A stretch of DNA of 64,000 nucleotides from Eledone cirrhosa (Eukaryota). The notes under the pieces are model-generated. The model saw nothing but the letters and a program-made list of their open reading frames with translations. It had not been told where the DNA came from and searched no databases. The stretch covers positions 131,254,001 through 131,318,000 of the forward strand of contig OZ024745.1 of the NCBI GenBank assembly GCA_964016885.1. The letters run 5' to 3'. Shown piece by piece: positions 2,277-50,942 of this stretch; the first letter of the stretch is position 1; the number at the start of each line of letters is the position of its first letter. The position numbers and the translations under genes are program-made.

Positions 2277-4790
2277 TCATCATCATTTAACATCCATTTT
2301 TCCACGCTAGCATGGGTTAGACAAGTTGTCCTATTGAGACAAGTCAGATTAGATGACCGTTTCTTGTTCATACTGAACTGTTTCTGGCTTTGTATCTATG
2401 GCTAGATGCCCTTCCTAATGCCAACCACATTTACAGTGTGTACTGGGTGCTTTATGGGGTAACACCTATACAACACTTTACAGTGTGTACTGGGTGCTTT
2501 ATGTCATGATGCCTACATGACCACTTTACAGTGTGTACTGGGAGCTTTATGTCATGATGTCTACATGACCACTTTACAGTGTGTACTGGGTGCTTTATGT
2601 CATGATGTCTACATGACCACTTTACAGTGTGTACTGGGTGCTTTATGTCATGATGTCTACATGACCACTTTACAGTGTGTACTGGGTGCTTTATGTCATG
2701 ATGTCTACATGACCACTTTACAGTGTGTACTGGGTGCTTTATGTCGTGATGTCTACATGACCACTTTACAGTGTGTACTGGGTGCTTTATGTCGTGATGT
2801 CTACATGACCACTTTACAGTGTGTACTGGGTGCTTTATGTCATGATGCCTACATGACCACTTTACAGTGTGTACTGGGTGCTTTATGTCGTGATGTCTAC
2901 ATGACCACTTTACAGTGTGTACTGGGTGCTTTATGTCATGATGTCTACATGACCACTTTACAGTGTGTACTGGGTGCTTTATGTCATGATGTCTACATGA
3001 CCACTTTACAGTGTGTACTGGGTGCTTTATGTCGTGATGTCTACATGACCACTTTACAGTGTGTACTGGGTGCTTTATGTCGTGATGTCTACATGACCAC
3101 TTTACAGTGTGTACTGGGTGCTTTATGTCATGATGTCTACATGACCACTTTACAGTGTGTACTGGGTGCTTTATGGGGTAACACCTATACAACCACATTT
3201 ACAGTGTGTACTGGGTGCTTTATGTCATGATGCCTACATGACCACTTTACAGTGTGTACTGGGTGCTTTATGGGGTAACACCTATACAACCACATTTACA
3301 GTGTGTACTGGGGGCTTTATGTCGTGATGTCTACATGACCACTTTACAGTGTGTACTGGGTGCTTTATGTCATGATGTCTACATGACCACTTTACAGTGT
3401 GTACTGGGTGCTTTATGTCGTGATGTCTACATGACCACTTTACAGTGTGTACTGGGTGCTTTATGTCGTGATGTCTACATGACCACTTTACAGTGTGTAC
3501 TGGGTGCTTTATGGGGTAACACCTATACAACCACATTTACAGTGTGTACTGGGGGCTTTATGTCATGATGTCTACATGACCACTTTACAGTGTGTACTGG
3601 GTGCTTTATGTCATGATGTCTACATGACCACTTTACAGTGTGTACTGGGTGCTTTATGTCGTGATGTCTACATGACCACTTTACAGTGTGTACTGGGTGC
3701 TTTATGTTGTGATGCCTACATGACCACTTTACAGTGTGTACTGGGTGCTTTATGTTGTGATGCCTATATGACCACTTTACAGTGTGTACTGGGTTTTTTA
3801 TGTTGTGACACCTATACAACACTTTACAGTGTGTACTGGGTGCTTTATGTTGTGACACCTCTACAAACACTTTACAGTGTGTAGTGGGTGCTTTATGTAG
3901 TGACACCTCTACAACTACTTTACAGTGTGTACTTTATGTGGTGACATCTATACAACTACTTTACAGTGTGTACTGGGTGCTTTATGTTGTGACACCTATA
4001 CAACCACATTTACAGTGTGTACTGGGTGCTTTATGGGGTAACTCCTCTACAACCACTTTACAGTGTGGACTGGGTGCTTTATGTTGTGACACCTATACAA
4101 CACTTTACAGTGTGTACTGGGTGCTTTATGTTGTGACACCTCTACAAACACTTTACAGTGTGTACTGGGTGCTTTATGTAGTGACACCTCTACAACTACT
4201 TTACAGTGTGTACTTTATGTGGTGACACCTATACAACTACTTTACAGTGTGTACTGGGTGCTTTATGTTGTGACACCTATACAACCACATTTACAGTGTG
4301 TACTGGGTGCTTTATGTGGTGACACCTCTACAACCACTTTACAGTGTGGACTGGGTGCTTTATGTTGTGACACCTATACAACACTTTACAGTGTGTACTG
4401 GGTGCTTTATGTGGTGACACCTCTACAACCACTTTACAGTGTGGACTGGGTGCTTTATGTTGTGACACCTATACAACACTTTACAGTGTGTACTGGGTGC
4501 TTTATGGGGTAACTCCTCTACAACCACTTTACAGTGTGGCCTGGGTGCTTTATGTTGTGACACCTATACAACACTTTACAGTGTGAACAGGGAGCTGGGG
4601 TGGGAAACTTGCATTGGGATGAAAAAAGTAGATCTAGGGGTGGGGGAGGACGTGGGTAGTGTGTTAGGATGGGGGAGGGGAAGTGGTGCTTACTAAATGT
4701 ATGTTACAACCTGTGCATATGGGAAGGCGGGTCTTTTGCATTATTACATAACTCCAGAAATCTTGATCCTATGTCATTGTCTTTGAAATA
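2277..4790 (-). mobile_element. 5'-truncated RTE LINE (long 3' UTR type) whose 3' UTR contains the 48-bp array
   Basis: (CAT)n tail at 2277 and GATGCCCTTCCTAA box at about 2405, then the array, then a G-rich tract and AAGGCGGGTCTT at about 4724. This is collinear with the unexpanded copies at 36258-36955 and 47667-48120. Confidence 0.75.
2425..4586. repeat. 48-bp minisatellite A, about 45 copies (ATGACCACTTTACAGTGTGTACTGGGTGCTTTATGTCATGATGTCTAC)
   Basis: Direct tandem repeat. Homogeneous from 2480 to 3780, then a second variant (TTGTGACACCTATACAAC) with 1-bp and 8-bp indels to the end. Confidence 0.97.
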
Positions 4791-5058: not shown

Positions 5059-7237
5059 ACTACTTTACAGAATGTACTTGGTGCATATTATTGTGGTACC
5101 AACATTACCACTTTACAGAGTGTACTGGGTGCATTTTATTGTGGCACTAACATTACCACTTTACAGAGTGTACTTGGTACATATTATTGTGGTACCAACA
5201 TTACTACTTTACAGAGTGTACTGGGTGCATATTATTGTGGTACCAACATTACTACTTTACAGAGTGTACTGGGTGCATTTTATTGTGGCACTAACATTAC
5301 TACTTTACAGAGTGTACTGGGTGCATATTATTGTGGTACCAACATTACTACTTTACAGAGTGTACTGGGTGCATTTTATTGTGGTACCAACATTACTACT
5401 TTACAGAGTGTACTGGGTGCATTTTATTGTGGCACTAACATTACTACTTTACAGAGTGTACTGGGTGCATATTATTGTGGTACCAACATTACTACTTTAC
5501 AGAGTGTACTGGGTGCATTTTATTGTGGTACCAACATTACTACTTTACAGAGTGTACTGGGTGCATTTTATTGTGGCACTAACATTACTACTTTACAGAG
5601 TGTACTGGGTGCATATTATTGTGGTACCAACATTACTACTTTACAGAATGTACTTGGTACATATTATTGTGGTACCAACATTACTACTTTACAGAGTGTA
5701 TTGGGTGCATTTTATTGTGGCACTAACATTACTACTTTACAGAGTGTACTGGGTGCATATTATTGTGGTACCAACATTTCTACTTTACAGAGTGTACTGG
5801 GTGCATATTATTGTGGTACCAACATTACTACTTTACAGAGTGTACTGGGTGCATTTTATTGTGGCACTAACATTACTACTTTACAGAGTGTACTGGGTGC
5901 ATTTTATTGTGGCACTAACATTACTACTTTACAGAGTGTACTGGGTGCATATTATTGTGGTACCAACATTACTACTTTACAGAGTGTACTGGGTGCATTT
6001 TATTGTGGCACTAACATTACTACTTTACAGAGTGTACTGGGTGCATTTTATTGTGGCACTAACATTACTACTTTACAGAGTGTACTGGGTGCATATTATT
6101 GTGGTACCAACATTACTACTTTACAGAGTGTACTGGGTGCATATTATTGTGGTACCAACATTACTACTTTACAGAGTGTACTGGGTGCATTTTATTGTGG
6201 CACTAACATTACTACTTTACAGAGTGTACTGGGTGCATTTTATTGTGGCACTAACATTACTACTTTACAGAGTGTACTGGGTGCATATTATTGTGGTACC
6301 AACATTACTACTTTACAGAGTGTACTGGGTGCATTTTATTGTGGCACTAACATTACTACTTTACAGAGTGTACTGGGTGCATTTTATTGTGGCACTAACA
6401 TTACTACTTTACAGAGTGTACTGGGTGCATATTATTGTGGTACCAACATTACTACTTTACAGAGTGTACTGGGTGCATTTTATTGTGGCACTAACATTAC
6501 TACTTTACAGAGTGTACTGGGTGCATTTTATTGTGGCACTAACATTACTACTTTACAGAGTGTACTGGGTGCATATTATTGTGGTACCAACATTACTACT
6601 TTACAGAGTGTACTGGGTGCATTTTATTGTGGCACTAACATTACTACTTTACAGAGTGTACTGGGTGCATTTTATTGTGGCACTAACATTACTACTTTAC
6701 AGAGTGTACTGGGTGCATTTTATTGTGGCACTAACATTACTACTTTACAGAGTGTACTGGGTGCATATTATTGTGGTACCAACATTACTACTTTACAGAG
6801 TGTACTGGGTGCATTTTATTGTGGTACCAACATTACTACTTTACAGAGTGTACTGGGTGCATTTTATTGTGGCACTAACATTACTACTTTACAGAGTGTA
6901 CTGGGTGCATATTATTGTGGCACTAACATTACTACTTTACAGAGTGTACTGGGTGCATATTATTGTGGCACTAACATTACTACTTTACAGAGTGTACTGG
7001 GTGCATTTTATTGTGGCACTAACATTACTACTTTACAGAGTGTACTGGGTGCATATTATTGTGGCACTAACATTACTACTTTACAGAGTGTACTGGGTGC
7101 ATTTTATTGTGGCACTAACATTACTACTTTACAGAGTGTACTGGGTGCATATTATTGTGGCACTAACATTACTACTTTACAGAGTGTACTGGGTGCATAT
7201 TATTGTGGTACCAACATTACTACTTTACAGAGTGTAC
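5059..7237. repeat. 48-bp minisatellite B, about 45 copies (ACTACTTTACAGAGTGTACTGGGTGCATWTTATTGTGGYACYAACATT)
   Basis: Indel-free tandem repeat with two alternating variants. It is preceded by the same degenerate GGATGnCCTTCnTAATGCCAAC box as array A. Confidence 0.97.
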
Positions 7238-8109
7238 TGTTTATCATGACTCCAGTGCTACTACACCTACCACTTTGCAGAGGTCTTTCTTTTAAATCAT
7301 TTCAGCAAGTGTGGTAGACAGTAAGTAGGATATGATTTGCAGAAGATTTCGCTGCTGTTTCTAGCAGTCTCAGCAACCATATAAAGGGTTCTTTCTTGGC
7401 TTGCAAACTAGTGATAGTCTAACATTACAATAAAAAGTTGGAGGTTTGTTATAGTGTATTCAGTACAGTTGATGTAAACATTAAAATCCTATCAAAGAGA
7501 AAATTTCTTTTAACTTGTTGTTGTTGTTGTTGTTGTTAGTTAGCATTTATTTGTCTTTTGTGTTTTTCTTCTGTCTTTCCTTCTGTTTGAAATGTTTTAT
7601 TACATGAGAGAAGTTCAACAATATCTCTGATGACAAATGTAATTTGTTGATGATTCTTTTGTTTTATATTTTCTCTCTTATTGTCAGATCTATTATTACT
7701 CACTTCCCCTATTATCTAACATTAAACAGTCTGTGTATTATTTGTTCCAGCTCTGACCTTTCCATGAATTCCCCTCATTATATTCTCTCATCTACTTAAG
7801 TAAATATTTAAAGATTCTCATTATTCTGCCTAACTTGACTTCCTACTCAGATTATGTTGGTCTAAACAAAACCAAATGAAATACAAAAATACACTTAAAA
7901 TATAAACAAAACCTGCCATCATATTTGTATCTAACGTTTTTTGTGTCTGTCAATATTTTGAAATTAAAACAGTATTATGTTCTGTCTTGACAATTTCTTC
8001 ACATCACACAAAAAATAAATTGTATTATTGTATAAAAGGAAAGAGTTAACACTTTGAGAATTATTATATTTACAATAGTTTATAACTTTGCCTATTAATT
8101 TGTATGGTG

Positions 8110-8972: not shown

Positions 8973-9030
<58 letters not shown>

Positions 9031-9036
<6 letters not shown>

Positions 9037-9161
9037 TGTATAGAAGGAGCTTCTACAGGACTAGAACTGTTTCATTCAGATGAAATCTTCAGGAGCTTCC
9101 TGAAGATTTCATCTGAATGAAATAGTTCTAGTCCTGTAGAAGCTCCTTCTATACAATAAAT
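9031..9161. repeat. 131-bp near-perfect palindrome of a Penelope-like terminal sequence next to (TA)n
   Basis: Arms ATTTATTGTATAGAAGGAGCTTCTACAGGACTAGAACTGTTTCATTCAGATGAAATCTTCAGGA and its reverse complement, with 1 mismatch. A related single copy lies at about 55045-55095. Confidence 0.9.
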
Positions 9162-9230
9162 ATATTTTACTCTGCCATGTATTGACTACCTTACTTACTG
9201 TGGTTATCCCCGACTCAACCCGGGACCTAC

Positions 9231-9262
<32 letters not shown>

Positions 9263-10201
9263 ACATATACATACACTGTAAATGTGATTAGTGTTAGGAA
9301 GGGCATGCAGCTGTAAAAAACCTGCCAGAGACACTTCTGTACGAGCGAGACACGGTTTCCCAACCATTCCCGCATCAAATGGAACAAAACCGTCTAACTC
9401 ATGCTAGCGTGGAAGATGGATGTTAAACAATGATGATGATGATGATATATATGTATATATACTTTGTGAACTTATCTTAACTCCTAATTAGAAAGAAATC
9501 ATTCTTTCATTAACCTTGTTAGAAGCTTTGATAATTCTGTAAAGAAAACACATTTTTTAAAAATCCCGCTCCATTCTCTCTTTCTCTCCTAATTTTGCCA
9601 AGCTCTCCTGAAGCAGAATATATTTTACTTCACTTACGACATTTGATGAAAGAAAGACTCTAAAGTCTGTTTAATATCACAAGATTGGCTACTGAGTTCA
9701 GCCTCAAGCTTTGGCACCAGATGAGTTTGTTAAATGAAACTTGCTGTTAAGTAAATTTCAACTTAGTTCTGATACCACGTATGTCGTTAAGCAGATTATG
9801 TGCTGATATTCCAATTAACTTTAAAAGAAGAGAAACACCTTATCTCAGACTAGAATTAGATTTGTTCTGCTTGAAGCTGATTATTGTTGTTGTTGCTACT
9901 GTTAGTCTTTATTTGCTTTGTTTTCAAACTAATACAGACATGCATACACATACTCATATCATCATCATCATCGTGGTGGATTGGCAGTATCGGTAGAGCG
10001 TTGGACAATATGCTTTATGGCATTAAGTTATGGCCCTTTACGTTCTGAGTTCAAATCCTGCCGAGGTTAGGTTTGCCTTTCATCCTTACGAGGTCGATAA
10101 AATAAAGTACCAGTAATGCACTGGGGTTGATTTAATTGACTTTCCCCTTCCCCCAAATTTGTAGGCCTTGTGCCTAAATCAGAAACCATCATTATTATCA
10201 C

Positions 10202-10600
10202 TAGGGGTGGTGGATTGGCAGTATTGGTAAAGGGTCGGACACCATGTTAGGGTGGTGGATTGGCAGTGTAGGTAAGGGTCGGACACCATGCTAGGGTGGT
10301 GGATTGGCAGTGTAGGTAAGGGTCGGACACCATGTTAGGGTGGTGGATTGGCAGTGTAGGTAAGGGTCGGACACCATGCTAGGGTGGTGAATTGGCAGTG
10401 TAGGTAAGGGTCGGACACCATGCTAGGGTGGTGGATTGGCAGTGTAGGTAAGGGTCGGACACCATGCTAGGGTGGTGGATTGGCAGTATAGGTAGTGGGT
10501 TGGACACCATGCTAGGGTGGTGGATTGGCAGTGTAGGTAGAGGGTCGGACACCATGCTAAGGTGGTAGATTAGCAGTATCGGTAGAAGGTCGGACGCCAT
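10202..10600 (+). repeat. 44/45-bp tandem array of the SINE head, about 9 copies
   Basis: CTAGGGTGGTGGATTGGCAGTGTAGGTA(G)AGGGTCGGACACCATG repeated, then continuing into one SINE body. Confidence 0.95.
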
Positions 10601-10904
10601 GCTTTGTCGCATAGAGTTATGGCCCTTGCCATTCTGAATTCAAATCCCGCCGAGGTTAACTTTGCCTTTCATCCTTATGGGGTCGATAAAATAAAGTACC
10701 AGTAATACACTGGGATAATTGCTGGCCTTGTGCCAAAAGTAGAAACAAAATATAATAATTGTTTCAACTTTTGGCACAAGGCCAGCAATTATCCCAGTGT
10801 ATTACTTGTACTTTATTTTATCGACCCCATAAGGATGAAAGGCAAAGTTAACCATGGCGGGATTTGAACTCATAAAGTAAAGGGCCGTAACTCTTTGCTG
10901 CAAA

Positions 10905-11715
10905 GCATGGTGTCCGACCCTCTACCTACACTGCCAATTCACCACCCTAGCATGGTGTCCGACCCTCTACCTACACTGCCAATCCACCACTCTAGCATGG
11001 TGTCCGACCCACTACCTACACTGCCAATCCACCACCCTAGCATGGTGTCCGACCCTCTACCTACACTGCCAATCCACCACCCTAGCATGGTGTCCGACCC
11101 TCTACCTACACTGCCAATCCACCACTCTAGCATGGTGTCCGACCCTCTACCTACACTGCCAATCCACCACCCTAGCATGGCGTCCGACTTTCTACTGATA
11201 CCGCCAATCCACCACCCTAGCATGGTGTCTGACCCTCTACCTACACTGCCAATCCACCACCCTAGCATGGTGTCCGACCTTCTACCGATACTGCCAATCC
11301 ACCACTCTAGCATGGTGTCCGACCCACTACCTACACTGCCAATCCACCACCCTAGCATGGCGTCCGACCTTCTACCGATACTGCCAATCCACCACCTTAG
11401 CATGGTGTCCGACCCACTACCTACACTGCCAATCCACCACCCTAGCATGGTGTCCGACCTTCTACCGATACTGCCAATCCACCACCCTAGCATGGTGTCC
11501 GACCCACTACCTACACTGCCAATCCACCACCCTAGCATGGTGTCCGACCTTCTACTGATACTGCCAATCCACCACCCTAGCATGGTGTCCGACCTTCTAC
11601 CGATACTGCCAATCCACCACCCTAGCATGGTGTCCGACCCACTACCTACACTGCCAATCCACCACCCTAGCATGGTACCCGACCTTCTACCGATACTGCC
11701 AATCCAGCACCCTTG
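10905..11715 (-). repeat. 45-bp tandem array of the SINE head, about 18 copies, inverted relative to 10202-10600
   Basis: CATGGTGTCCGACCCTCTACCTACACTGCCAATCCACCACCCTAG repeated. The host SINE is bounded by the TSD GAAACAAAATATAATA (10742-57 and 11716-31). Confidence 0.95.
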
Positions 11716-13384
11716 AAACAAAATATAATAGTGGTTTCTGATTTAGGTACAAGGCCAAGAATTGTTTGGGCGAAGGGGAAAGTCAATTAAATTGACCCCA
11801 GTGCATTACTGGTACTTTATCTTATCAGCCCTGTAAGCATGAAAAGCAAACCTAACCGAGGCAGGATTTGAACTCAGAATGTAAAAGGCCATAACTCTAT
11901 GCTGCAAAGCATGTCCAACGCTCTATCGATATTGACAATCTACCCCCAAAATAGAAAATAATTGTTTCTACTTTTGGCACAAGGCCAGCAATTATACCAG
12001 TGTATTACTGGTACTTTATTTTATCGACCCCGTAAGGATGAAAGGCAAAGTTAACCTCGGTGGGATTTGAACTCAGATCATAAAGGGACGTAACTGTGCT
12101 GCAAAGCATGACGTCCGACCCTCTACCGATACTGCCAATCTACCCCCAAAATAAAAAATAATAATGGTTTCTGATTTAGGCACATGGCCTGGGGAAGGGA
12201 AAGTTGATTAAATCGACCCCATAAGAATGAAAGTCAAAGCTAACTTCTGAGGATTTGAACTCAGAGTGCAAAGGGCTGTAACTCTATGCCACAAAGGATG
12301 TTGTCCGACGCTCTACTGATACTTATTTATAATAATAAATAATGGAAATATTAATCTTTTAACGATTTTTGAAAATTTATTTTCCTAATTATTCTCCACC
12401 TTTCTTTATGTCTTTGATTGCCATCAATTAAACACTGCCATCTTGCACCATCAGCATTCCACTGCAATTACTTATATTATCTGTTCTGCTAAACCAACTT
12501 AAAAGAGAGAGCTGCATCTACCAAGACATATAAAGCTGTGCATTGGCACATGTCTAGGTGACTTAGACACCACCTACGTTTGGCTTGCCATCAACATGTT
12601 CTTCTACCTTCCGTAGTAACAGAAGATCATCTACACACACAGATGCACACTTTGTTGATGTAGACTATGTTAGTGAGCAGACTCTCGCTTAAACTTGCAT
12701 CACTATAAAACCAGCCTCTTTTACATTTATAATAACACGACTAAAATTCTGAATATTTCAAAAAATATATATAGATGTTTTGTTGTTATATTTTCATTTT
12801 TTATTTAAATGAGAGAAAAAAAATCTAAAAGTAACTCTTCTAATAACATGATTGAAGAGAAGTGTAGGCAGTTGTTTTTATATGGCAGGTTTTGTTATAT
12901 ATTTCCCCATGTCTGTCTATCCAATCTCATATATTTTATTATGTTTGAAAATGAGTTAAATAAATATGAGTCATGAATGTGTTGTAGTAGCAGGTATTCA
13001 GCTAACTATAGAGGTCATCAGTTGATGAAGTAGGCTGTGTGTGTAGAAGTGTGTGTGTGTATATGTGTGAGTAGAATGTGTGTGTTTGTTGTAAACTGTT
13101 ACCATATGTTTGCTGTTTTGGAAGTGTGTGTGTTTTCCAAATCTTTTGGATGTTTCATCAATTAATTAGTAAGTAGATTTGGTATAGCAACTGACAGGTA
13201 GCTAGCTAGTTTAGTTTTAAAGAAGAATGCAGACTCCATATAAATAATGTTTTGTTTTGGCATTTCTAACAGAAAAACTGGATTAAAAAAATAAAGAAAT
13301 TGTATTTTAAGAATAAAAAAAAACTCAACCGAAACATAACTAAGTGTGAAACAGTAAGTGGATGTAGAAATAATTTATTAAAGG

Positions 13385-14041
13385 TTCTTTAGTTACGAAC
13401 CTGGCAAAAACCACCTCTGGTTCTATGAAATAAAACCACCCATTTTAACTCTTTAGTTAGATTGGAAACCTTAAGAATGGATGGTTTTATTTATTAGAAC
13501 CAGAGCTGGTTTTGGTTAGTATGGTAACTAAAGGGTTAAAATGGGAGGTTTTATTTCATAGAACCAGAGCTGGTTTTGAGCAGGTTGGTAACTAAAGGGT
13601 TAAAATGGGTGGTTTTATTTCATAGAACCAGAACTGGTTTTGGTCAGGTTGGTAACTAAAGGGTTAAAATGGGAGGTTTTATTTCATAGAACCAGAACTG
13701 GTTTTGGTCAGGTTGGTAACTAAAGGGTTAAAATGGGAGGTTTTATTTCATAGAACCAGAGCTGGTTTTGGTCAGGTTGGTAACTAAAGGGTTAAAATGG
13801 GAGGTTTTATTTTATTGAACCAGAGTTGGTTTTGGTCGGGTTGGTAACTAAAGGGTTAAAATGTGTGATTTTATTTCATAGAACCAGAGCTGGTTTCAGT
13901 CAGGTTGGTAACTAAAGGGTTAAAATGGGAGGTTTTATTTCATAGAACCAGAGCTGGTTTCAGTCAGGTTGGTAACTAAAGGGTTAAAATGGGAGGTTTT
14001 ATTTCATAGAACCAGAGCTGGTTTCAGTCAGGTTGGTAACT
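13385..14041. repeat. 64-bp tandem array (about 9 copies) of a MITE terminal arm, with an inverted arm at 13385-13457
   Basis: Unit CTAAAGGGTTAAAATGGGAGGTTTTATTTCATAGAACCAGAGCTGGTTTTGGTCAGGTTGGTAA. It carries the same AAAGGG-TTAA end as the piggyBac-like MITEs. Single arms also occur near 1575-1632, 17040-17088 and 37100-37160. Confidence 0.88.
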
Positions 14042-17900: not shown

Positions 17901-19404
17901 CAGACACATTACTAGTGATTTAATTTCTGAGGAAAAATGTTTATGATTTGGAATGAGACATATACATCTAGGGTGGGTTAGGGGCATGAACAAATTGGAT
18001 TCCAACAAGTCAATCTCTGGCTCACTGTAATTTCAGATTTTAACTCAACATTCACATGAGCTCTATCTTTACATACACATAATAAATTATCTTATATATA
18101 CTATGGGGGTGTAATATACAAGTTAGATGATTTTTATTCTTCTTACACATCATCATCATTGTTTTTTTACGTATGTTTTTCCATGCTTGCATGGGTTGCT
18201 ATTTTTATAGTCAGCTGTAGAAACCAAGCTAGAAATGGTTCTGTATGAGCAAGACACGGTCATCTCTGATCTTTCAACGGGACAACTCGTCTTACCCATG
18301 CTAGCATGGAAAATGGACGTTAAACAGTGATAATGAAGATATATAATTATCGTTGTTAGACGTGATTTATATTTAATTAAACTGTTTAAGTTTACTTTGT
18401 TATAATTTTCAACACATTGTCATTCCCTACTTTTACTTCCTACTTATGATGTACCATTTCTTGAAATTTATTTGAAATATTGCCAAACAAGTAATCAACA
18501 CCGAAGGTAAACTACTGCCAGCTTGAATCAGTTAACCAATTTTTATTCCAAATGGAAGCTATGAATTCTTACTTACATCGTTCATATGAATTAATAAATG
18601 TTACAACTCCCAATCTAATTGATCTAATGATGTTAGAATCAAAGTCAACCAGGACACGACAATGGAGAAATCAGTCAAGTGTATTCTCCTTGAGTTACTG
18701 TGACAGTCATGTTAAGTTCTGCTGATATATCATCATTGTTTAATGGTAGCATGGGTTAGACAAGTTGTCCTGATATAAGATATGCCAGATCAGTTGACCG
18801 TGTTTTGCTCATACAGAACCGATTTTGGCTTGGTTTCTACAGCTGGATGCCCTTGAAAGTAGAAATAGCTTTGAAATTGTTTGGGGTCAGTTCTTCTTGA
18901 ACCAACATTATATCTTTATTTAAACTCTTAATGCCCTTTGAAATCTCATATGACTCCCTCTTTTTCCCTGAAATACACAGTTTTTGTATTTCATGAAGAA
19001 GAAACCTACCTTATATTGTCACCATAAGTTTTGTAGTAGTTTATTTGTTTTTAAATGTGATTGCCAAAGACTTGTTCACCAAACCCTACAACCTCTAGTC
19101 CACAGTTATGTTGGCTCCTCACTGATTTTACTCATGAGAACTTACTAGTTACATACCACCTCCACCCACATGGCACACTTGTCTCTCTCTACTCTTGATC
19201 CTTGCACTAACCAATCCTTCCACCCCATAACAAACTTCAGCTCTTTGGAATTTCCTTCCCACCCACTCATTCTGCCTTAAAGAGATGTTGGAATTGAACA
19301 CCAACCATATTAAATCCCACGAGTCTCAGTGGCTGTTTAAAGGTCCTAGGTACTGCTCCTTGCTCCTGACCAACATCACCAGTTTCTAAGTATTGGTGAA
19401 ATAC

Positions 19405-22400
19405 ATGGTCACTGCTCCGTCCCTCCTGACCAATGTTATTGTCTTTGAGGTCCTGTGAAGGTCATGGTCACTGCTCCGTCCCTCCTGACCAATGTTATTG
19501 TCTTTGAGGTACTGTGAAGGTCATGGACACTGCTCCATCCTTCTTGACCAATGCTATTGTCTTTGAGGTACTGTGAAGGTCATGGTCACTGCTCCGTCCC
19601 TCCTGACCAATGTTATTGTCTTTGAGGTACTGTGAAGGTCATGGACACTGCTCCATCCTTCTTGACCAATGTTTTTGTCTTTGAGGTACTGTGAAGGTCA
19701 TGGACACTGCTCCTTCTCTCCTGACCAATGTTATTGTCTTTGAGGTCCTGTGAAGGTCATGGACACTGCTCCATCCCTCCTGACCAATGTTATTGTCTTT
19801 GAGGTACTGTGAAGGTCATGGACACTGCTCCATCCTTCTTGACCAATGTTTTTGTCTTTGAGGTCCTGTGAAGGTCATGGACACTGCTCCTTCTCTCCTG
19901 ACCAATGTTATTGTCTTTGAGGTCCTGTGAAGGTCATGGACACTGCTCCATCCCTCCTGACCAATGTTATTGTCTTTGAGGTACTGTGAAGGTCATGGAC
20001 ACTGCTCCATCCTTCTTGACCAATGTTTTTGTCTTTGAGGTCCTGTGAAGGTCATGGCCACTGCTCCATCCCTCCTGACCAATGTTATTGTCTTTGAGGT
20101 ACTGTGAAGGTCATGGACACTGCTCCATCCTTCTTGACCAATGTTTTTGTCTTTGAGGTCCTGTGAAGGTCATGGACACTGCTCCTTCTCTCCTGACCAA
20201 TGTTATTGTCTTTGAGGTCCTGTGAAGGTCATGGACACTGCTCCATCCCTCCTGACCAATGTTATTGTCTTTGAGGTACTGTGAAGGTCATGGACACTGC
20301 TCCATCCTTCTTGACCAATGTTTTTGTCTTTGAGGTCCTGTGAAGGTCATGGACACTGCTCCTTCTCTCCTGACCAATGTTATTGTCTTTGAGGTCCTGT
20401 GAAGGTCATGGACACTGCTCCATCCCTCCTGACCAATGTTATTGTCTTTGAGGTACTGTGAAGGTCATGGACACTGCTCCATCCTTCTTGACCAATGTTT
20501 TTGTCTTTGAGGTCCTGTGAAGGTCATGGACACTGCTCCTTCTCTCCTGACCAATGTTATTGTCTTTGAGGTCCTGTGAAGGTCATGGACACTGCTCCAT
20601 CCCTCCTGACCAATGTTATTGTCTTTGAGGTCCTGTGAAGGTCATGGACACTGCTCCTTCTCTCCTGACCAATGTTATTGTCTTTGAGGTCCTGTGAAGG
20701 TCATGGACACTGCTCCATCCCTCCTGACCAATGTTATTGTCTTTGAGGTACTGTGAAGGTCATGGACACTGCTCCATCCTTCTTGACCAATGTTTTTGTC
20801 TTTGAGGTCCTGTGAAGGTCATGGTCACTGCTCCATCCCTCCTGACCAATGTTATTGTCTTTGAGGTCCTGTGAAGGTCATGGCCACTGCTCCTTCTCTC
20901 CTGACCAATGTTATTGTCTTTGAGGTCCTGTGAAGGTCATGGCCACTGCTCCTTCCCTCTTGACCAATGTTATTGTCTTTGAGGTCCTGTGAAGGTCATG
21001 GCCACTGCTCCTTCTCTCCTGACCAATGTTATTGTCTTTGAGGTCCTGTGAAGGTCATGGCCACTGCTCCTTCCCTCTTGACCAATGTTATTGTCTTTGA
21101 GGTCCTGTGAAGGTCATGGCCACTGCTCCTTCTCTCCTGACCAATGTTATTGTCTTTGAGGTCCTGTGAAGGTCATGGCCACTGCTCCTTCCCTCTTGAC
21201 CAATGTTATTGTCTTTGAGGTCCTGTGAAGGTCATGGCCACTGCTCCTTCTCTCCTTACCAATGTTATTGTCTTTGAGGTCCTGTGAAGGTTATGGCCAC
21301 TGCTCCTTCCCTCTTGACCAATGTTATTGTCTTTGAGGTCCTGTGAAGGTCATGGCCACTGCTCCTTCTCTCCTGACCAATGTTATTGTCTTTGAGGTCC
21401 TGTGAAGGTCATGGCCACTGCTCCTTCCCTCTTGACCAATGTTATTGTCTTTGAGGTCCTGTGAAGGTCATGGCCACTGCTCCTTCCCTCTTGACCAATG
21501 TTATTGTCTTTGAGGTCCTGTGAAGGTCATGGCCACTGCTCCATCCCTCTTGACCAATGCTATTGTCTTTGAGGTACTGTGAAGGTCATGGCCACTGCTC
21601 CGTCCCTCCTGACCAATGTTATTGTCTTTGAGGTCCTGTGAAGGTCATGGACACTGCTCCTTCCCTCTTGACCAATGTTATTGTCTTTGAGGTCCTGTGA
21701 AGGTCATGGCCACTGCTCCTTCTCTCCTGACCAATGTTATTGTCTTTGAGGTCCTGTGAAGGTCATGGCCACTGCTCCTTCCCTCTTGACCAATGTTATT
21801 GTCTTTGAGGTCCTGTGAAGGTCATGGCCACTGCTCCTTCCCTCTTGACCAATGTTATTGTCTTTGAGGTCCTGTGAAGGTCATGGCCACTGCTCCATCC
21901 CTCTTGACCAATGCTATTGTCTTTGAGGTACTGTGAAGGTCATGGCCACTGCTCCGTCCCTCCTGACCAATGTTATTGTCTTTGAGGTCCTGTGAAGGTC
22001 ATGGACACTGCTCCTTCCCTCTTGACCAATGTTATTGTCTTTGAGGTCCTGTGAAGGTCATGGCCACTGCTCCTTCTCTCCTGACCAATGTTATTGTCTT
22101 TGAGGTCCTGTGAAGGTCATGGCCACTGCTCCTTCCCTCTTGACCAATGTTATTGTCTTTGAGGTCCTGTGAAGGTCATGGCCACTGCTCCTTCCCTCTT
22201 GACCAATGTTATTGTCTTTGAGGTCCTGTGAAGGTCATGGCCACTGCTCCATCCCTCTTGACCAATGCTATTGTCTTTGAGGTACTGTGAAGGTCATGGC
22301 CACTGCTCCGTCCCTCCTGACCAATGTTATTGTCTTTGAGGTCCTGTGAAGGTCATGGCCACTGCTCCTTCTCTCCTGACCAATGTTATTGTCTTTGAGG

Positions 22401-24033
22401 TACTGTGAAGGTCATGGACACTGCTCCTTCCCTCTTGACCAATGTTATTGTCTTTGAGGTCCTGTGAAGGTCATGGCCACTGCTCCTTCCCTCTTGACCA
22501 ATGTTATTGTCTTTGAGGTCCTGTGAAGGTTATGGCCACTGCTCCGTCCCTCCTGACCAATGTTATTGTCTTTGAGGTCCTGTGAAGGTCATGGCCACTG
22601 CTCCGTCCCTCCTGACCAATGTTATTGTCTTTGAGGTCCTGTGAAGGTCATGGCCACTGCTCCGTCCCTCCTGACCAATGTTATTGTCTTTGAGGTACTG
22701 TGAAGGTTATGGACACTGCTCCTTCCCTCTTGACCAATGTTATTGTCTTTGAGGTCCTGTGAAGGTCATGGCCACTGCTCCTTCCCTCTTGACCAATGTT
22801 ATTGTCTTTGAGGTCCTGTGAAGGTTATGGCCACTGCTCCGTCCCTCCTGACCAATGTTATTGTCTTTGAGGTCCTGTGAAGGTCATGGCCACTGCTCCG
22901 TCCCTCCTGACCAATGTTATTGTCTTTGAGGTCCTGTGAAGGTCATGGCCACTGCTCCGTCCCTCCTGACCAATGTTATTGTCTTTGAGGTACTGTGAAG
23001 GTTATGGACACTGCTCCTTCCCTCTTGACCAATGTTATTGTCTTTGAGGTCCTGTGAAGGTCATGGCCACTGCTCCTTCCCTCTTGACCAATGTTATTGT
23101 CTTTGAGGTCCTGTGAAGGTTATGGCCACTGCTCCGTCCCTCCTGACCAATGTTATTGTCTTTGAGGTCCTGTGAAGGTCATGGCCACTGCTCCGTCCCT
23201 CCTGACCAATGTTATTGTCTTTGAGGTCCTGTGAAGGTCATGGCCACTGCTCCTTCCCTCTTGACCAATGTTATTGTCTTTGAGGTCCTGTGAAGGTTAT
23301 GGCCACTGCTCCGTCCCTCCTGACCAATGTTATTGTCTCTGAGGTCCTGTGAAGGTCATGGCCACTGCTCCGTCCCTCCTGACCAATGTTATTGTCTTTG
23401 AGGTCCTGTGAAGGTCATGGCCACTGCTCCGTCCCTCCTGACCAATGTTATTGTCTTTGAGGTACTGTGAAGGTCATGGACACTGCTCCTTCCCTCTTGA
23501 CCAATGTTATTGTCTTTGAGGTCCTGTGAAGGTCATGGCCACTGCTCCTTCCCTCTTGACCAATGTTATTGTCTTTGAGGTCCTGTGAAGGTTATGGCCA
23601 CTGCTCCTTCCCTCCTGACCAATGTTATTGTCTTTGACGTCCTGTGAAGGTCATGGCCACTGCTCCTTCTCTCCTGACCAATGTTATTGTCTTTGAGGTC
23701 CTGTGAAGGTCATGGTCACTGCTCCGTCCCTCCTGACCAATGCTATTGTCTTTGAGGTCCTGTGAAGGTCATGGCCACTGCTCCTTCTCTCTTGACCAAT
23801 GTTATTGTCTTTGACGTCCTGTGAAGGTCATGGACACTGCTCCTTCCCTCTTGACCAATGTTATTGTCTTTGAGGTCCTGTGAAGGTCATGGCCACTGCT
23901 CCTTCCCTCTTGACCAATGTTATTGTCTTTGAGGTCCTGTGAAGGTCATGGTCACTGCTCCGTCCCTCCTGACCAATGTTATTGTCTTTGAGGTCCTGTG
24001 AAGGTCATGGCCACTGCTCCTTCTCTCCTGACC
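19405..24033. repeat. 59-bp satellite, about 78 copies (GGTCATGGCCACTGCTCCTTCCCTCTTGACCAATGTTATTGTCTTTGAGGTCCTGTGAA), with higher-order structure
   Basis: Indel-free 59-bp period across about 4.6 kb inside a CIP2A intron. A diverged precursor-like unit lies at about 19340-19400. Confidence 0.98.
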
Positions 24034-35994: not shown

Positions 35995-37093
35995 CCCTTT
36001 AGCATTATTGTATATACTAATGGTGGATTGGCAGTATCGGTAGAGGGTCAGACGCCATGCTTTGCAGCATAGAATTATGGCCCTTTACAGTCTGAGTTCA
36101 AATCCTGCAGAGGTTAACTTTGCCTTTCATCCTTACGGGGTCAATAAAAGAAAGTACCAGTAATGTACTGGGGTAATTGCTGGCCTTGTGCCTAAAGTAG
36201 AAACAATTATTGTATATACTATTGTATTTTTGTTGTAAAGGCTTTACCTCACATAATTCATCATCATCATCATCATCAGGTTTAGCGTCCGTGTTCCACG
36301 CTTGCATGGGTTTGGACGGGGGTTTTCCCACTTGAGGCAAGAGTGGTTGTCTTGCTCGCATAGGACTGTCTGGCGGGTTTTCTACAGTTGGATGCCCTTC
36401 CTAACACCAACCACATTTACAGTGTGGGGCTGGGAGGTTTTTACCGTGTTGCCTACACGGCCACATTACAGCGTGGACTGTCTGGCGGGTTTTCTACAGC
36501 TGGATGCCCTTCCTAACACCAACCACATTTACAGTGTGGGGCTGGGAGGTTTTTACCGTGTTGCCTACACGGCCACATTTACAGCGTGGACTGTGTGTTT
36601 TTTTGTCGTGACACCTACACGATCTCATTTGTTTCGGCCTGGATGTTGTGGGACCAACATAACTGTACATTGAAAGGGGCGGTGTGGATGGGGTGGAGGT
36701 GGTGGGACGGGGGGGGGGGGTGTTTTGATAGAGATGCCTACTGACTGTAGTAGGTTTTTACTTTGTATTTAGGTAAGGCGGGTCTTCTCTATTACTGAGT
36801 ACCGCCAAAGGTCTTGGTCCAGTGACATTGTCTTGGAGAGGTGTAAGCGTGTGAGGTCGGAATTTATCAGCTCGTCCCATGTTTTTCTGGGTCTGCCTAC
36901 TCCGTGGCTACCGTCTATCTTTATTGCCCTGCACTTTGTTATACAGCACTTTGTTATATAATATCAAATCTATGAGATTTTGATGTTATTTATTTTAAGA
37001 ACAATACCTTAACGTCAGTATGAGCAGCCAGTTTGAACAGAAAGAGATGCAAGAATTCTGGTGGGATAGAGCCAGTTTAGATGCTAAAAGGTT
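35995..37093. mobile_element. piggyBac-like MITE split by two nested retroposon insertions
   Basis: Begins TTAACCCTTTAGCATT. MITE pieces at 36222-36257 and 36958-37093 flank a SINE (36020-36205, TSD ATTATTGTATATACTA) and an RTE LINE (36258-36955). Confidence 0.8.
36258..36955 (-). mobile_element. 5'-truncated RTE LINE with long 3' UTR
   Basis: The minus strand reads ITKCRAIKIDGSHGVGRPRKTWDELINSDLTRLHLSKTMSLDQDLWRYSVIEKTRLT*, then about 500 nt of UTR with a duplicated GTTGGTGTTAGGAAGGGCATCC box and an (ATG)n tail. Confidence 0.85.
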
Positions 37094-37964: not shown

Positions 37965-38613
37965 ATTATTAATATCTGTTGGGTGGGGAAGTACACATGT
38001 CAGGTTTTCTATTGTCTCTACTTCCCATTTTCATCTCATGATGATGATGATGATGATGGTAGTGGTGGTGGGGGTGGTGACAGAAGCAGTAGTGATGATG
38101 ATGTTGATATCTTCCCCACCACCCCTCGCCACTTCCTTGGTACACCTTTCCTGTCAAAACATTCTCCACAATAGACCACCCCATGACACATCACTCCATA
38201 TGTCAGGTGACCGTGTCTTGCCCATACATTTGGTCTTTAGCTTGGTTTTCTACAGATGGATGCCCTTCTTAATACCAACCACTTTACATGTATTGGGAGC
38301 ATTTTTCATGGTACCAGTACAACCATCTTACAGGGTAGACTGGGTGTTTTTTGTCATGACACCAGCACTACCACTTTACAGGGTGGACTGGGTGCTTTTT
38401 TGTCATGAAACCAGCACTACCACTTTACAGGGTAAACTGAGTGCTGTAAAATACTCAGCCAAATTTACAGTCCTCGTCAGAGCAACACATGGCCAACCCT
38501 GGCCAGACTTGCCTCTCGGGGTGGACAACCTGTCTAACCCATGCAAGCGTGAACAAATTGATGTTAAACGGAAATGATGAATGAGGATGATATATATATA
38601 TATATATATATAT

Positions 38614-40177: not shown

Positions 40178-40895
40178 AAAGTGTTAAAATGATCAAATTT
40201 TAGTTTAGAACATTTATTTGCTGGATCTTATCCCAGTATCACTATTAAAATTTATTCAGTATATATTATAAATATGTATTTCTAATTTAACCACAAGTCC
40301 ATCAAATTGACGAAGGTGTAAGTTGATTTAATTGACTCTTGTTCTTGACTGCTATTTTATTTTATCAACCTTGGAAGGTTGAGTGACAAAGTTAACCTTG
40401 CTGGGATTTGAACTCAGAACAATTAGCACAAACTATTCTGTCCAACTCTTCCAATTCACTACCCTATAATGGTTTCTAACTTTGAAATAAAGCTTTTTGG
40501 TACCTATTTTATAAATGTGTGCTTATATTAGTCATCTTTGGCAGGATTTTTTTCTAGCATGTATTGGGTGTATTTTATCATAAAAATGGTTTTAACACAG
40601 ACACAGCGCTACATTTGAACTAAGCCAGCGAAAGGTTGCAACACAGTGCCATTTCTGCTACTCAGTAGTTTCTATGAAATAATTCTTTCTAAACACAAGG
40701 CTAGCAATTTGGGGAAAAGAAAAGGTCAATTAAATTGATTCCAGTACTTGACTGGTATTTTTTATCAACTCAAGAAGGATGAAGATCAAAGTTGACCTCA
40801 GCAGGATTTCAACTCAGAAAGTAGGGAACCAGTACAAAATACTGCAAAATATTTTCTCCAACTATCTTCCAATCCACTGCTCTTAATTTTCTATG

Positions 40896-41162
40896 TAATA
40901 ATTGTTTCTACTTTTGACACAAAGCCAGCAATTAACCCAGTGTATTACTGGTACTTTATTTTATCAACCCTGTAATAATTGTTTCTACTTTTGACACAAA
41001 GCCAGCAATTAACCCAGTGTATTACTGGTACTTTATTTTATCAACCCTGTAATAATTGTTTCTACTTTTGACACAAAGCCAGCAATTAACCCAGTGTATT
41101 ACTGGTACTTTATTTTATCAACCCTGTAATAATTGTTTCTACTTTTGGCACAAAGCCAGCAA
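40896..41162 (-). repeat. 77-bp tandem array (about 3.5 copies) of the SINE family 1 tail
   Basis: TAATAATTGTTTCTACTTTTGACACAAAGCCAGCAATTAACCCAGTGTATTACTGGTACTTTATTTTATCAACCCTG at 40896, 40973, 41050 and, partially, 41127. Confidence 0.93.
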
Positions 41163-41440
41163 TCTGCTGGGAAAAGGAAAGTCAATTAAATCAACCCCAA
41201 TGCATTACTGGTATTTTATTTTATCGACCCTGTAAGGATGAAAGGTAAAGCTAACCTCTGTGGGATTTGAAATCAGAATGTAAAGGATGACAACTCTATG
41301 CCAGACAGCATGTCCAATGTTCTACCAATCCACTGCCCTTAAAATTTTCTATGTAATAATAATAATATTGTTTGTTTTTTCATTATATAGATACAAGCCA
41401 GACATTTTGTAGGGGGGCTATAGACTAAACATTGAACCCA

Positions 41441-43155
41441 GGCCAGAATTCTCTCAACTTTTTTAGTTCAAACTATCCATATCCAGCCACTCATACTTAT
41501 GTTAAGGTATTGTTCTCAAAATAAATACTAACAAAATCTCAGATTCAATATTATCTGAGATATTATGTAAGGTAAAGCCTTTACTGTGAAAATACAATAG
41601 TATATATAGAGTAATGTAAATGTTATGTGAGATATTATGTGAGGTAAAGCCTTTACTGTGATAATACAATAGTATATATAGAGTAATGTAAATGTTATGT
41701 GAGATATTATGTGAGGTAAAGCCTTTACTGTGACAATACAATAGTATATATAGAGTAATGTAAATGTTATGTGAGATATGTGAAGTAAAGCCTTTACTGT
41801 GAAAATACAATAGTATATATAGAGTAATGTAAATGTTATGCGAGATATGTGAAGTAAAGCCTTTACTGTGAAAATACAATAGTATATATAGAGTAATGTA
41901 AATGTTATGTGAGATATTATGTGAAGTAAAGCCTTTACTGTGAAAATACAATAGTATATATAGAGTAATGTAAATGTTATGCGAGATATGTGAAGTAAAG
42001 CCTTTACTGTGAAAATACAATAGTATATATAGAGTAATGTAAATGTTATGTGAGATATTATGTGAAGTAAAGCCTTTACTGTGAAAATACAATAGTATAT
42101 ATAGAGTAATGTAAATGTTATGTGAGATATTATGTGAGGTAAAGCCTTTACTGTGACAATACAATAGTATATATAGAGTAATGTAAATGTTATGCGAGAT
42201 ATTATGTGAAGTAAAGCCTTTACTGTGAAAATACAATAGTAAATATAGAGTAATGTAAATGTTATGCGAGATATTATGTGAAGTAAAGCCTTTACTGTGA
42301 AAATACAATAGTAAATATAGAGTAATGTAAATGTTATGTGAGGTAAAGCCTTCACCGTGAAAATACAATAGTATATATAGAGTAATGTAAATGTTATGTG
42401 AGGTAAAGCCTTTACTGTGAAAATACAATAGTAAATATAGAGTAATGTAAATGTTATGTCAGATATTATGTGAGGTAAAGCCTTTACCGTGAAAATACAA
42501 TAGTATATATAGAGTAATGTAAATGTTATGCGAGATATGTGAGGTAAAGCCTTTACTGTGAACATACAATAGTATATATAGAGTAATGTAAATGTTATGC
42601 AAGATATTATGTGACGTAAAGTTTTTACTGTGAAAATACAATAGTATATATAGAGTAATGTAAATGTTATGCGAGATATTATGTGAAGTAAAGCCTTTAC
42701 TGTGAAAATACAATAGTAAATATAGAGTAATGTAAATGTTATGCGAGATATTATGTGAGGTAAAGCCTTTACTGTGAAAATACAATAGTATATATAGAGT
42801 AATGTAAATGTTATGCAAGATATTATGTGACGTAAAGCCTTTACTGTGAAAATACAATAGTATATATAGAGTAATGTAAATGTTATGCGAGATATGTGAA
42901 GTAAAGCCTTTACTGTGAAAATACAATAGTAAATATAGAGTAATGTAAATGTTATGTGAGGTAAAGCCTTCACCGTGAAAATACAATAGTATATATAGAG
43001 TAATGTAAATGTTATGTGAGGTAAAGCCTTTACTGTGAAAATACAATAGTAAATATAGAGTAATGTAAATGTTATGTCAGATATTATGTGAGGTAAAGCC
43101 TTTACCGTGAAAATACAATAGTATATATAGAGTAATGTAAATGCTAAACAGTTAA
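41441..43155. repeat. piggyBac-like MITE whose subterminal segment is amplified into about 23 tandem units of 60/69/72 bp
   Basis: 41441-41560 is collinear with the MITE interior at 26988-27100. The units TGTGAGGTAAAGCCTTTACTGTGAAAATACAATAGTATATATAGAGTAATGTAAATGTTA(+TGTGAGATATTA) match the MITE 3' part. The array ends in ATGCTAAACAGTTAA, a degenerate TIR plus TTAA. Confidence 0.92.
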
Positions 43156-44314: not shown

Positions 44315-44830
44315 GTGGTTGGTGTTAGGAAGGGCATCCAGCCGTAGAAAACCCACCTTCTCAGGTGTACAGGTTGAAGTATACACCTAGTGCACACTAC
44401 TTTCCCTTACCTCCTGCTTCCATACATTTCTAACATCCTAACACCCCTCCCTTGATCTACACCTCACCTGATGTGTGCTCCACCCTAGCACTTAGTCCAC
44501 TCTGTAAAGGGGACGTTTCTAGTGTCACAACAAAAAGCACCCAGTCCACTCTGTAAAGTGGTCATGTGTTACAACAAAAACACCCAGTCCACTCTGTAAA
44601 GTGGTCATGTAAGTGTTACAACAAAAAGCACCCAGTCCACTCTGTAAAGTGGTCATGTAAGTGTTACAACAAAAACACCCAGTCCACTCTGTAAAGTGGT
44701 CATGTAAGTGTTACAACAAAAACACCCAGTCCACTCTGTAAAGTGGTCATGTAAGTGTCACAACAAAAAGCACCCAGTCCACTCTGTAGATGTTGGTGTT
44801 AGGAAGGGCATCCAGCCTTAGAAACCAAGT
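44315..44830 (+). repeat. RTE 3'-UTR fragment with about 6 copies of the 47/48-bp module
   Basis: CACCCAGTCCACTCTGTAAAGTGGTCATGTAAGTGTTACAACAAAAA repeats lie between two GTTAGGAAGGGCATCCAGCC boxes. Confidence 0.88.
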
Positions 44831-49456: not shown

Positions 49457-50942
49457 ATGTATGGTCCTGTAACTCTTGTGGGAATCGCTGCGGCGCCATA
49501 TTCACATACGGCATTTCCAGGGCATTTAAAACCTGGTGGAACCCATCTCCCCCTCTCCAGGTCTGAATACAACAGATTTCTTCCAGAGAAGGATAGAGAG
49601 TGAGAGAATGGAAGTGAGAAAGAGATATAGAGGAAGAATCGACCCCGGTAATTGATTGGTACTTTTTTTTATTGACCTTGAATGGATGAAAGACAAAATT
49701 GACCTCGGTGAGATTTAGACTCAGAGAGCAGAGAGCCAAAACGAATACTGCAAAGCATTCTAACGACTCTGCCATTCTATCCTATGTTCTAACCACTCTA
49801 CCATTCTAACTGACGTTCTAACGACTCTGCCATTCTATCCTATGTTCTAACCACTCTACCATTCTAACTGACGTTCTAACGACTCTGCCATTCTATCCTA
49901 TGTTCTAACCACTCTACCATTCTAACTGACGTTCTAACGACTCTGCCATTCTATCCTATGTTCTAACCACTCTACCATTCTAACTGACGTTCTAACGACT
50001 CTGCCATTCTATCCTATGTTCTAACTACTCTACCATTCTAACGACTCTGCCATTCTATCCTATGTTCTAACCACTCTACCATTCTAACTGACGTTCTAAC
50101 GACTCTGCCATTCTATCCTATGTTCTAACCACTCTACCATTCTAACTGACGTTCTAACGACTCTGCCATTCTATCCTATGTTCTAACCACTCTACCATTC
50201 TAACTGACGTTCTAACGACTCTGCCATTCTATCCTATGTTCTAACCACTCTACCATTCTAACGACTCTGCCATTCTATCCTATGTTCTAACCACTCTACC
50301 ATTCTAACTGACGTTCTAACGACTCTGCCATTCTATCCTATGTTCTAACCACTCTACCATTCTAACTGACGTTCTAACGACTCTGCCATTCTATCCTATG
50401 TTCTAACCACTCTACCATTCTAACGACTCTGCCATTCTATCCTATGTTCTAACCACTCTACCATTCTAACTGACGTTCTAACGACTCTGCCATTCTATCC
50501 TATGTTCTAACCACTCTACCATTCTAACGACTCTGCCATTCTATCCTATGTTCTAACCACTCTACCATTCTAACTGACGTTCTAACGACTCTGCCATTCT
50601 ATCCTATGTTCTAACCACTCTACCATTCTAACTGACGTTCTAACGACTCTGCCATTCTATCCTATGTTCTAACCACTCTACCATTCTAACGACTCTGCCA
50701 TTCTATCCTATGTTCTAACCACTCTACCATTCTAACTGACGTTCTAACGACTCTGCCATTCTATCCTATGTTCTAACCACTCTACCATTCTAACTGACGT
50801 TCTAACGACTCTGCCATTCTATCCTATGTTCTAACTACTCTACCATTCTAACTGACGTTCTAACGACTCTGCCATTCTATCCTATGTTCTAACTACTCTA
50901 CCATTCTAACTGACGTTCTAACGACTCTGCCAATTCCCCACC
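49457..50942 (-). mobile_element. SINE family 2 copy whose head is amplified into a 58-bp array (49757-50932, about 21 units)
   Basis: Body at 49457-49756, then units TTCTAACGACTCTGCCATTCTATCCTATGTTCTAACCACTCTACCATTCTAACTGACG (two 29-bp subunits, some 46-bp deletion units). The array ends in the true SINE 5' end CTCTGCCAATTCCCCACC. Confidence 0.93.

What the first reader, a model, noticed from the sequence alone, without database searches (positions are those of the whole stretch)
9973..11950. 2-kb SINE palindrome with mirror-image amplification of the Pol III A-box head in both arms
Seen: the layout is A(+) B(+) | B'(-) A'(-). Both inner SINEs have their 44-45 bp head multiplied, about 9 and 18 times. 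Both arrays share derived states absent from ordinary copies: GTGTAGGTA instead of GTATCGGTA, and a CTAG junction. B' nevertheless has its own 16-bp TSD that includes the end of B, so it looks like a separate insertion rather than a simple inverted duplication. Inference: either a multi-headed SINE is itself mobile and re-inserted beside its parent, or the arms exchange sequence through hairpin-mediated conversion. Many A-boxes in front of one B-box could give nested Pol III starts, with convergent transcripts forming dsRNA.
Basis: partly seen in the sequence, partly recalled or inferred. Interest (0 to 1): 0.72.

Follow-up and report, generated by a model that had tools for sequence, protein, structure and literature searches.

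The report
Facing SINEs swap head-repeat units
Two unrelated copies of a common small jumping element sit tail to tail, each with its first 45 bases repeated many times, and the two repeat runs share rare variants found nowhere else in the genome, so they likely copied from each other during DNA repair; no function is shown.

Summary
The layout is real: A(+) B(+) | B'(-) A'(-), 9 and 18 heads, a 16-bp TSD around B'. Two more SINEs follow on the minus strand, and only about 300 bp per arm is 92% complementary. Neither ingredient is unique: the same head junction has 7,576 exact matches in arrays (nine in the first 4 Mb of C1), and 182 tail-to-tail pairs exist. The two bodies belong to different single-headed subfamilies, so B' is not B re-inserted. 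Yet two unit haplotypes occur only here in 3.0 Gb, in both arms (2 of 2 and 6 of 6 matches). Arm-to-arm transfer by repair or template switching is the best reading (0.75). B's innermost head otherwise occurs only in two arrays on another chromosome, so units likely also travel between chromosomes. Arms of other tail-to-tail pairs share rare variants too (7 of 36 against 41 of 3,427). The dsRNA idea is weak: B's B box is mutated and T4 runs flank the centre. The reads did not test the centre. The scan had already noted SINE-head arrays elsewhere in this genome.

The parts
9973..10201 (+). SINE A, long-tail type, single head, A and B boxes intact; possible degenerate (CAT)n TSD
10205..10604 (+). 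Head array of B: 9 units of 44-45 bp; five units carry a 1-bp deletion seen only in this arm
10560..10604 (+). Innermost head of B; its 28-mer occurs elsewhere only in two arrays on C10; its start-plus-AGAA haplotype recurs once in B'
10605..10748 (+). Body of B, short-tail subfamily 'S1'; B box at 10636 mutated; tail end non-canonical, no TSD
10742..10757 (.). Left copy of the 16-bp TSD of B'; loop of the inverted repeat
10758..10901 (-). Body of B', short-tail subfamily 'S2'-like; B box intact at 10871
10902..11714 (-). Head array of B': 18 units of 45 bp, two unit types alternating in the outer two-thirds
11715..11730 (.). Right copy of the 16-bp TSD of B'
11731..11947 (-). SINE A', long-tail type, single decayed head, internal T4 runs
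11963..12147 (-).
12157..12323 (-).

Best explanation
B and B' are SINE copies of two different subfamilies lying tail to tail in a six-SINE pile-up, and their head arrays share genome-unique variants, likely because array units were copied from one arm to the other by DNA repair or template switching. Steps. (1) Shown: B' has its own TSD that includes B's end, so it was inserted after B's end stood there. (2) Inferred: B lost its tail end and right TSD by a deletion. (3) Inferred: a unit of the genome-wide 45-bp head minisatellite entered this subtelomeric locus (3.46 Mb from the end of C5) by ectopic conversion; B's innermost head matches the units of arrays on C10. (4) Inferred from private haplotypes: units passed between the arms, most simply by break repair in one G-rich array using the inverted arm 300 bp away as template; a fold-back hairpin intermediate is possible but not shown. 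(5) Inferred: each arm then expanded on its own (44-bp units only in B, a dimer alternation only in B'). No function is implied.
For: Private haplotypes in both arms: 2 of 2 genome-wide matches, one per arm; 6 of 6 matches, 1 in B and 5 in B'. GTGTAGG units: 54 matches in 4 loci, the other three being long arrays where it is a minority. An 8-head SINE 51 kb away has none of these variants in 8 of 8 units. Bodies of different subfamilies. The same junction sits on at least four body classes in 39 other arrays (approximate motif classing). In 11 of 21 arrays with an intact 5' end the first unit keeps the single-head C while internal units have T, as expected if units were added inside an existing copy. 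B's innermost-head 28-mer: 19 matches, 1 here and 18 in two C10 arrays with other bodies. Arms of other tail-to-tail pairs share doubleton variants in 7 of 36 pairs against 41 of 3,427 unrelated pairs (Fisher p 4e-7); L216 shows a shared patch between arms of different subfamily. Direct-orientation neighbours of multi-headed copies stayed single-headed in 7 of 7 cases seen (L036, L054, L061, L066, L067, A, A').
Against: The 5' bodies next to the arrays are not homogenised (11 differences), so whole-hairpin correction does not fit. Overall arm divergence in other tail-to-tail pairs is not lower than between random copies (median 8.8% against 10.3%, p 0.18; 9.9% against 11.0%, p 0.21, before filtering). 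Some sharing in those pairs (L174, L176, L208, L220) could come from two insertions of one source copy. By simple unit distance, B and B' (2.0) are matched or beaten by 17 of 300 pairs of unrelated arrays. The AGAA variant alone is not private (88 matches at many loci). None of 98 arms of 49 other tail-to-tail pairs has an array, so the mirror case has no replicate in my sample (49 of 182 pairs seen). One assembly only; no population or ortholog data.
Confidence: 0.75

Rival explanations
1. A multi-headed SINE is mobile as such; B (or a chimera made by reverse-transcriptase template switching from a single-headed RNA to B's RNA) was re-inserted beside its parent as B'.
For: B' has a clean TSD. 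Other multi-headed copies have TSDs (9 of 30 by a strict test), including two-headed ones. The 3' bodies of B and B' differ at only 2 sites (1 of 120 S1-by-S2 pairs is that close). An A box one unit upstream is about 98 bp from the B box.
Against: 5' bodies belong to different subfamilies; B's B box is mutated; 267 of 3,321 copy pairs are as close in the 3' body; a TSD is also kept when an array grows inside an inserted copy; no third copy with these haplotypes exists in the assembly; a chimera needs two switches.
Confidence: 0.08
2. Both arms acquired their arrays separately from the same distant donor array, with no exchange between arms.
For: Units do seem to move between chromosomes; GTGTAGG units exist at three other loci.
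Against: No donor in the assembly carries the two private haplotypes; arrays are rare even here (1 of 53 other SINEs in 264 kb; 0 of 57 in 400 kb of evenly spaced samples).
Confidence: 0.07
3. Fold-back (inverted) duplication of one multi-headed SINE, followed by divergence.
For: 298-nt arms, 92% complementary, 10-nt spacer.
Against: TSD around B'; differences fall on subfamily-diagnostic sites; A and A' are 84.8% alike and flanks are not mirrored.
Confidence: 0.03
4. Assembly artefact (chimeric fold-back read or mis-joined repeats).
For: No listed contig spans the centre in three runs whose contigs match the flanks exactly (lists were cut).
Against: Arms differ by 8-11% with subfamily-specific states, arm-specific unit types and a TSD, which a fold-back read would not give.
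Confidence: 0.03
5. A functional unit: multiplied A boxes boost or diversify Pol III starts and the pair yields dsRNA (editing or small-RNA substrate).
For: Single-stranded DNA of 10195-11320 folds into one long hairpin (-612.7 kcal/mol; no shuffle control at this length). B' keeps its B box.
Against: B box of B mutated; T4 on both strands at the centre; arrays are locus-variable like minisatellites. dsRNA would need a Pol II transcript across the locus, which was not shown.
Confidence: 0.04

Closest known systems
SINE-derived satellites (sSat1-3) of squamate reptiles, PMC10702118 (text parts 1-4 of 5 read; supplements not read)
   Same: Tandem unit shorter than the SINE and taken from it; SINE remainder attached at one end; few to hundreds of units; alternating sub-variants within a locus; subtelomeric bias.
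   Different: Unit is 45 bp (theirs about 67-290) and holds only the A box. One junction sits on several body subfamilies. In the parts read I saw no inverted pair with arrays in both arms and no transfer of units between copies.
Closely spaced inverted Alu pairs and CLIQUEs, PMC3215922 (abstract and first third of Results read)
   Same: SINEs pile up in the TSDs of earlier copies, mostly in one orientation; inverted pairs with short spacers are the rare class (here 10 direct against 2 inverted within 60 bp); deletions at inverted pairs.
   Different: No head arrays in Alu pairs; other target site (ATT-type here).
Arm homogenisation of inverted repeats: template switching in yeast (PMC8604942, abstract read; PMC3820800, search listing only) and arm-to-arm conversion in Y palindromes (PMC3723533, search listing only)
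   Same: Variants pass between the arms of an inverted repeat.
   Different: Arms here are only about 89-92% alike and what passed is a tandem array, while the adjacent 5' bodies stayed distinct.
Complex (dimeric, trimeric) SINE families, PMC3531059 (passages read); colugo t-SINE and Culex Twin (reference titles only, details recalled)
   Same: More than one tRNA-like head module before the tail.
   Different: Those transpose as fixed multimers; here head number runs from 2 to over 100 and bodies are of several subfamilies.
Octopus tRNA-derived SINEs OK/OR1/OR2 (named in PMC4758252, passages read)
   Same: Resemblance recalled from memory only.
   Different: No sequence comparison was possible; organism and family name are untested.

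Membership tests
SINE (Pol III type 2) | Short, interspersed, at least 100 copies | tested here: met
   45,308 exact matches to a 35-place head pattern, control 0
SINE (Pol III type 2) | A and B boxes at tRNA-like spacing | tested here: met
   50-53 bp apart in A, B, B', A', C' (box consensus recalled); B's B box mutated
SINE (Pol III type 2) | TSDs and simple-repeat tail | tested here: met
   20 of 29 single-headed copies have a TSD of 10 bp or more; B' and C' have TSDs; B does not
SINE (Pol III type 2) | Head similar to a tRNA | tested here: inconclusive
   No tRNA hit by Rfam at E up to 1 or ARAGORN
SINE (Pol III type 2) | Pol III transcription and a partner LINE with shared 3' end | not tested
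   No RNA holder listed; no LINE search made
SINE-derived satellite (sSat) | Tandem unit from part of a SINE, at least four middle monomers, SINE remainder at one end | tested here: met
   9 and 18 units followed by full bodies
SINE-derived satellite (sSat) | Many loci, some long | tested here: met
   7,576 junction matches; 39 other arrays parsed, 2 to at least 138 units
SINE-derived satellite (sSat) | Subtelomeric bias | tested here: met
   Locus 3.46 Mb from the end of C5; 9 arrays in the first 3.84 Mb of C1; 0 of 57 SINEs in evenly spaced samples; not a full genome map
Complex (multimeric) mobile SINE family | Fixed multimer with one body lineage and shared diagnostics | tested here: not met
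   At least four body classes, variable head number
Arm-to-arm conversion in inverted repeats | Derived variants private to the locus present in both arms | tested here: met
   enrichment in other pairs
Arm-to-arm conversion in inverted repeats | Direction and tract shown against an outgroup or other alleles | not testable with these tools
   No relatives held for this genome; contigs swamped by repeats
miRNA-type hairpin | Rfam family match at gathering score | tested here: not met
   13 matches, all below gathering score, driven by the stem alone

The most novel reading that the evidence does not exclude
The 45-bp head array is a self-spreading minisatellite that uses the tens of thousands of single-headed SINEs as landing sites: it converts them by DNA repair regardless of subfamily, jumps between subtelomeres of different chromosomes (C10 to C5 here) and crosses between the arms of inverted pairs, with a bias towards gain, like a homing element without an enzyme. 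This locus records two such hops.
Probability: 0.3. Interest if true: 0.62.

Novelty: new variant of a known kind. Interest (0 to 1): 0.36.

Why it matters
How one satellite unit comes to sit at many separate loci is usually inferred from averages. Here genome-unique haplotypes trace single transfers, between two arms 300 bp apart and probably between chromosomes, onto SINE bodies of different ancestry. With 182 tail-to-tail pairs and many arrays in one assembly, rates and tract lengths of ectopic conversion become testable. It also warns that head-based SINE subfamily calls can be chimeric. No cellular function is indicated.

Tried and rejected
Read support: no RNA holder was listed, which says nothing on expression. 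Contigs of X1 and X3 match the flanks exactly (9433-10001, 12212-12700), and these may be the assembly's own sample. No listed piece spans the centre, but both lists were cut (483,588 and 38,907 rows hidden) and swamped by other SINE copies: no verdict. Run X4 (another organism label) gave no usable ortholog piece. Host gene: 32 of 66 stop-to-stop ORFs of 90 aa or more were scanned against Pfam, no hit; short exons would be missed, so an intronic position is open. Rfam and ARAGORN: nothing meaningful. Unit distance as a test of kinship was weak and was replaced by haplotype counts; no unit tree was built. Conversion of the inner 3' body is only suggestive; the S2 set was partly chosen by similarity to B', which biases it. 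The idea that B's innermost head is its native head was dropped. Rows dropped: 9 of 49 pairs lacked 80 shared columns; one search kept 87 of 95 aligned arms and 36 pairs. Look-up of earlier findings by sequence was blank. Literature searches listed no paper on head arrays in both arms of an inverted SINE pair; subscription papers, and supplements that I did not open, may hold one.

Full report
Observation. B has 9 heads and B' 18. B' is flanked by a 16-bp direct repeat (10742-10757, 11715-11730) that includes the last bases of B. The best inverted pair is 298 nt per arm, 92% complementary, with a 10-nt spacer. A and A' are 84.8% alike, as ordinary family members are. So the outer symmetry is a by-product of a SINE pile-up. 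The right flanks of A', C' and B' suggest one AT-rich site hit repeatedly (inference). B has no TSD and a non-canonical tail end (0 of 76 other copies end like it), which points to a deletion before B' arrived (inference).

The ingredients are common. The window is G000:C5:131,254,001-131,318,000, 3.46 Mb from the end of a 134.7-Mb contig. The young head pattern has 45,308 exact matches. The head-to-head junction has 2,232 and 7,576 exact matches with two patterns, with nine arrays in the first 3.84 Mb of C1. I parsed 39 other arrays of 2 to at least 138 units on at least four body classes (these loci were found by targeted searches, not sampled at random). In 40 evenly spaced 10-kb samples 0 of 57 SINEs were multi-headed; in 264 kb around the window 3 of 55. 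Tail-to-tail pairs of the short-tail type with 5-15-bp spacers number 182, control 1; I examined 49, and none of their 98 arms has an array. The CTAG junction therefore does not link the two arms, and the mirror case is rare.

The bodies are unrelated. Against 15 single-headed copies of one subfamily and 8 of another, B has 7 of 8 diagnostic states of the first and B' 5 of 8 of the second; they differ at 11 sites in the 5' body and 2 in the 3' body. The nearest copies of each are other loci. The second set was partly selected by similarity to B'. This argues against both re-insertion of B and fold-back duplication.

The arrays are related. A unit with a changed first base plus the AGAA change has exactly two matches in 3.0 Gb, one in each arm. 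A unit with TAGGTAGT has six matches, one in B and five in B'. GTGTAGG units have 54 matches in four loci; it is the major type in both arms here and a minority in three long arrays. An 8-head copy 51 kb away has none of these. Against this: AGAA alone occurs 88 times at many loci, and plain unit distance is not exceptional (17 of 300 unrelated pairs as close). Each arm also has private features: five 44-bp units in B, a dimer alternation and a three-copy variant in B'.

A more distant link. The 28-mer of B's innermost head, with three G-to-A changes, has 19 matches: one here, 18 in two arrays near the start of C10, none in a single-headed copy. Three C10 units equal B's head but for the first and last base, and one C10 unit has the same changed first base; their bodies differ from B's. 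Independent triple mutation is possible given many arrays, but transfer between chromosomes is the simpler reading (inference). In 11 of 21 arrays with an intact 5' end the first unit keeps the single-head C while internal units have T, which fits addition of units inside existing copies; it would also fit a two-headed source.

Other inverted pairs. Arms share variants seen in only two sequences in 7 of 36 pairs against 41 of 3,427 unrelated pairs (p 4e-7), while overall divergence is not lower. L216 shows a shared patch between arms of different subfamily; L174, L176, L208 and L220 are same-subfamily pairs that could be twin insertions from one source. Patchy arm-to-arm exchange thus seems to be a general property of these pairs.

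Mechanism. Two separate insertions; arrival of the head minisatellite by ectopic conversion; copying between arms; separate expansion. The unconverted 5' bodies next to converted arrays favour repair initiated in the unstable array with the nearby inverted arm as template over whole-hairpin correction, though the strand can fold as one hairpin. That minisatellites mutate by such repair is recalled knowledge; template switching between inverted arms is described in PMC8604942 (abstract).

RNA reading. B's B box is mutated, and T4 runs lie at 10769 (+) and 10750 (-). Pol III transcripts would be two same-sense SINE RNAs overlapping by about 26 nt. dsRNA needs a read-through transcript, which I could not test.

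Comparison. It meets the description of SINE-derived satellites in PMC10702118 (parts 1-4 of 5 read), and the clustering resembles Alu CLIQUEs (PMC3215922). It fails the test for a fixed multimeric SINE family. PMC13282606 (passages) does not mention satellites. Earlier notes of this scan report head arrays elsewhere in this genome and guess spread between copies; they are unreviewed, and the counts above are my own. What this locus adds is haplotype-level tracing of transfer.

Verdict. Real; a new variant of a known kind; likely without function; interest 0.36.

Noticed in passing
window 9027-9165: Near-perfect palindrome, 68-nt arms 99% complementary, 3-nt spacer; MITE-like or fold-back.
   Followed up: no
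window 2424-4596, 5059-7239, 38302-38445, 44487-44788, 36363-36594: Minisatellites of 47-49 and 112 bp that share a core motif and seem to derive from a second interspersed repeat.
   Followed up: no
window 40894-41163: 77-bp tandem of the 3' end of the same SINE, 3.5 copies, 99% alike: tails as well as heads are amplified.
   Followed up: no
window 19404-24033, 13471-14041, 41547-43143, 49758-50932: Further unrelated minisatellites (59, 64, 72 and 58 bp units); the window is rich in tandem arrays.
   Followed up: no
window 48414-48807: Head-to-head SINE pair with overlapping truncated heads.
   Followed up: no
G000:C5 about 131,213,379 (L118): 8-head SINE of a third body subfamily, 51 kb upstream, with its own unit variants; used as control.
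   Followed up: yes
L222 (C10:2.19 Mb) and L223 (C10:2.46 Mb): Two arrays 263 kb apart, opposite strands, different bodies, sharing rare head variants with each other and with B's innermost head.
   Followed up: partly
L174, L176, L208, L220, L216: Tail-to-tail pairs whose arms share rare variants; four are same-subfamily pairs 2-7% apart (twin insertion or conversion), L216 has a shared patch across subfamilies.
   Followed up: partly
L001 1812-1860: The 5' end of a 10-head array is replaced by a short palindrome.
   Followed up: no
G000:C1 3.03-3.09 Mb, 10.32-10.42 Mb, 20.68-20.76 Mb; C2 18.42-18.44 and 21.86-21.89 Mb: Head arrays spanning tens of kilobases.
   Followed up: partly
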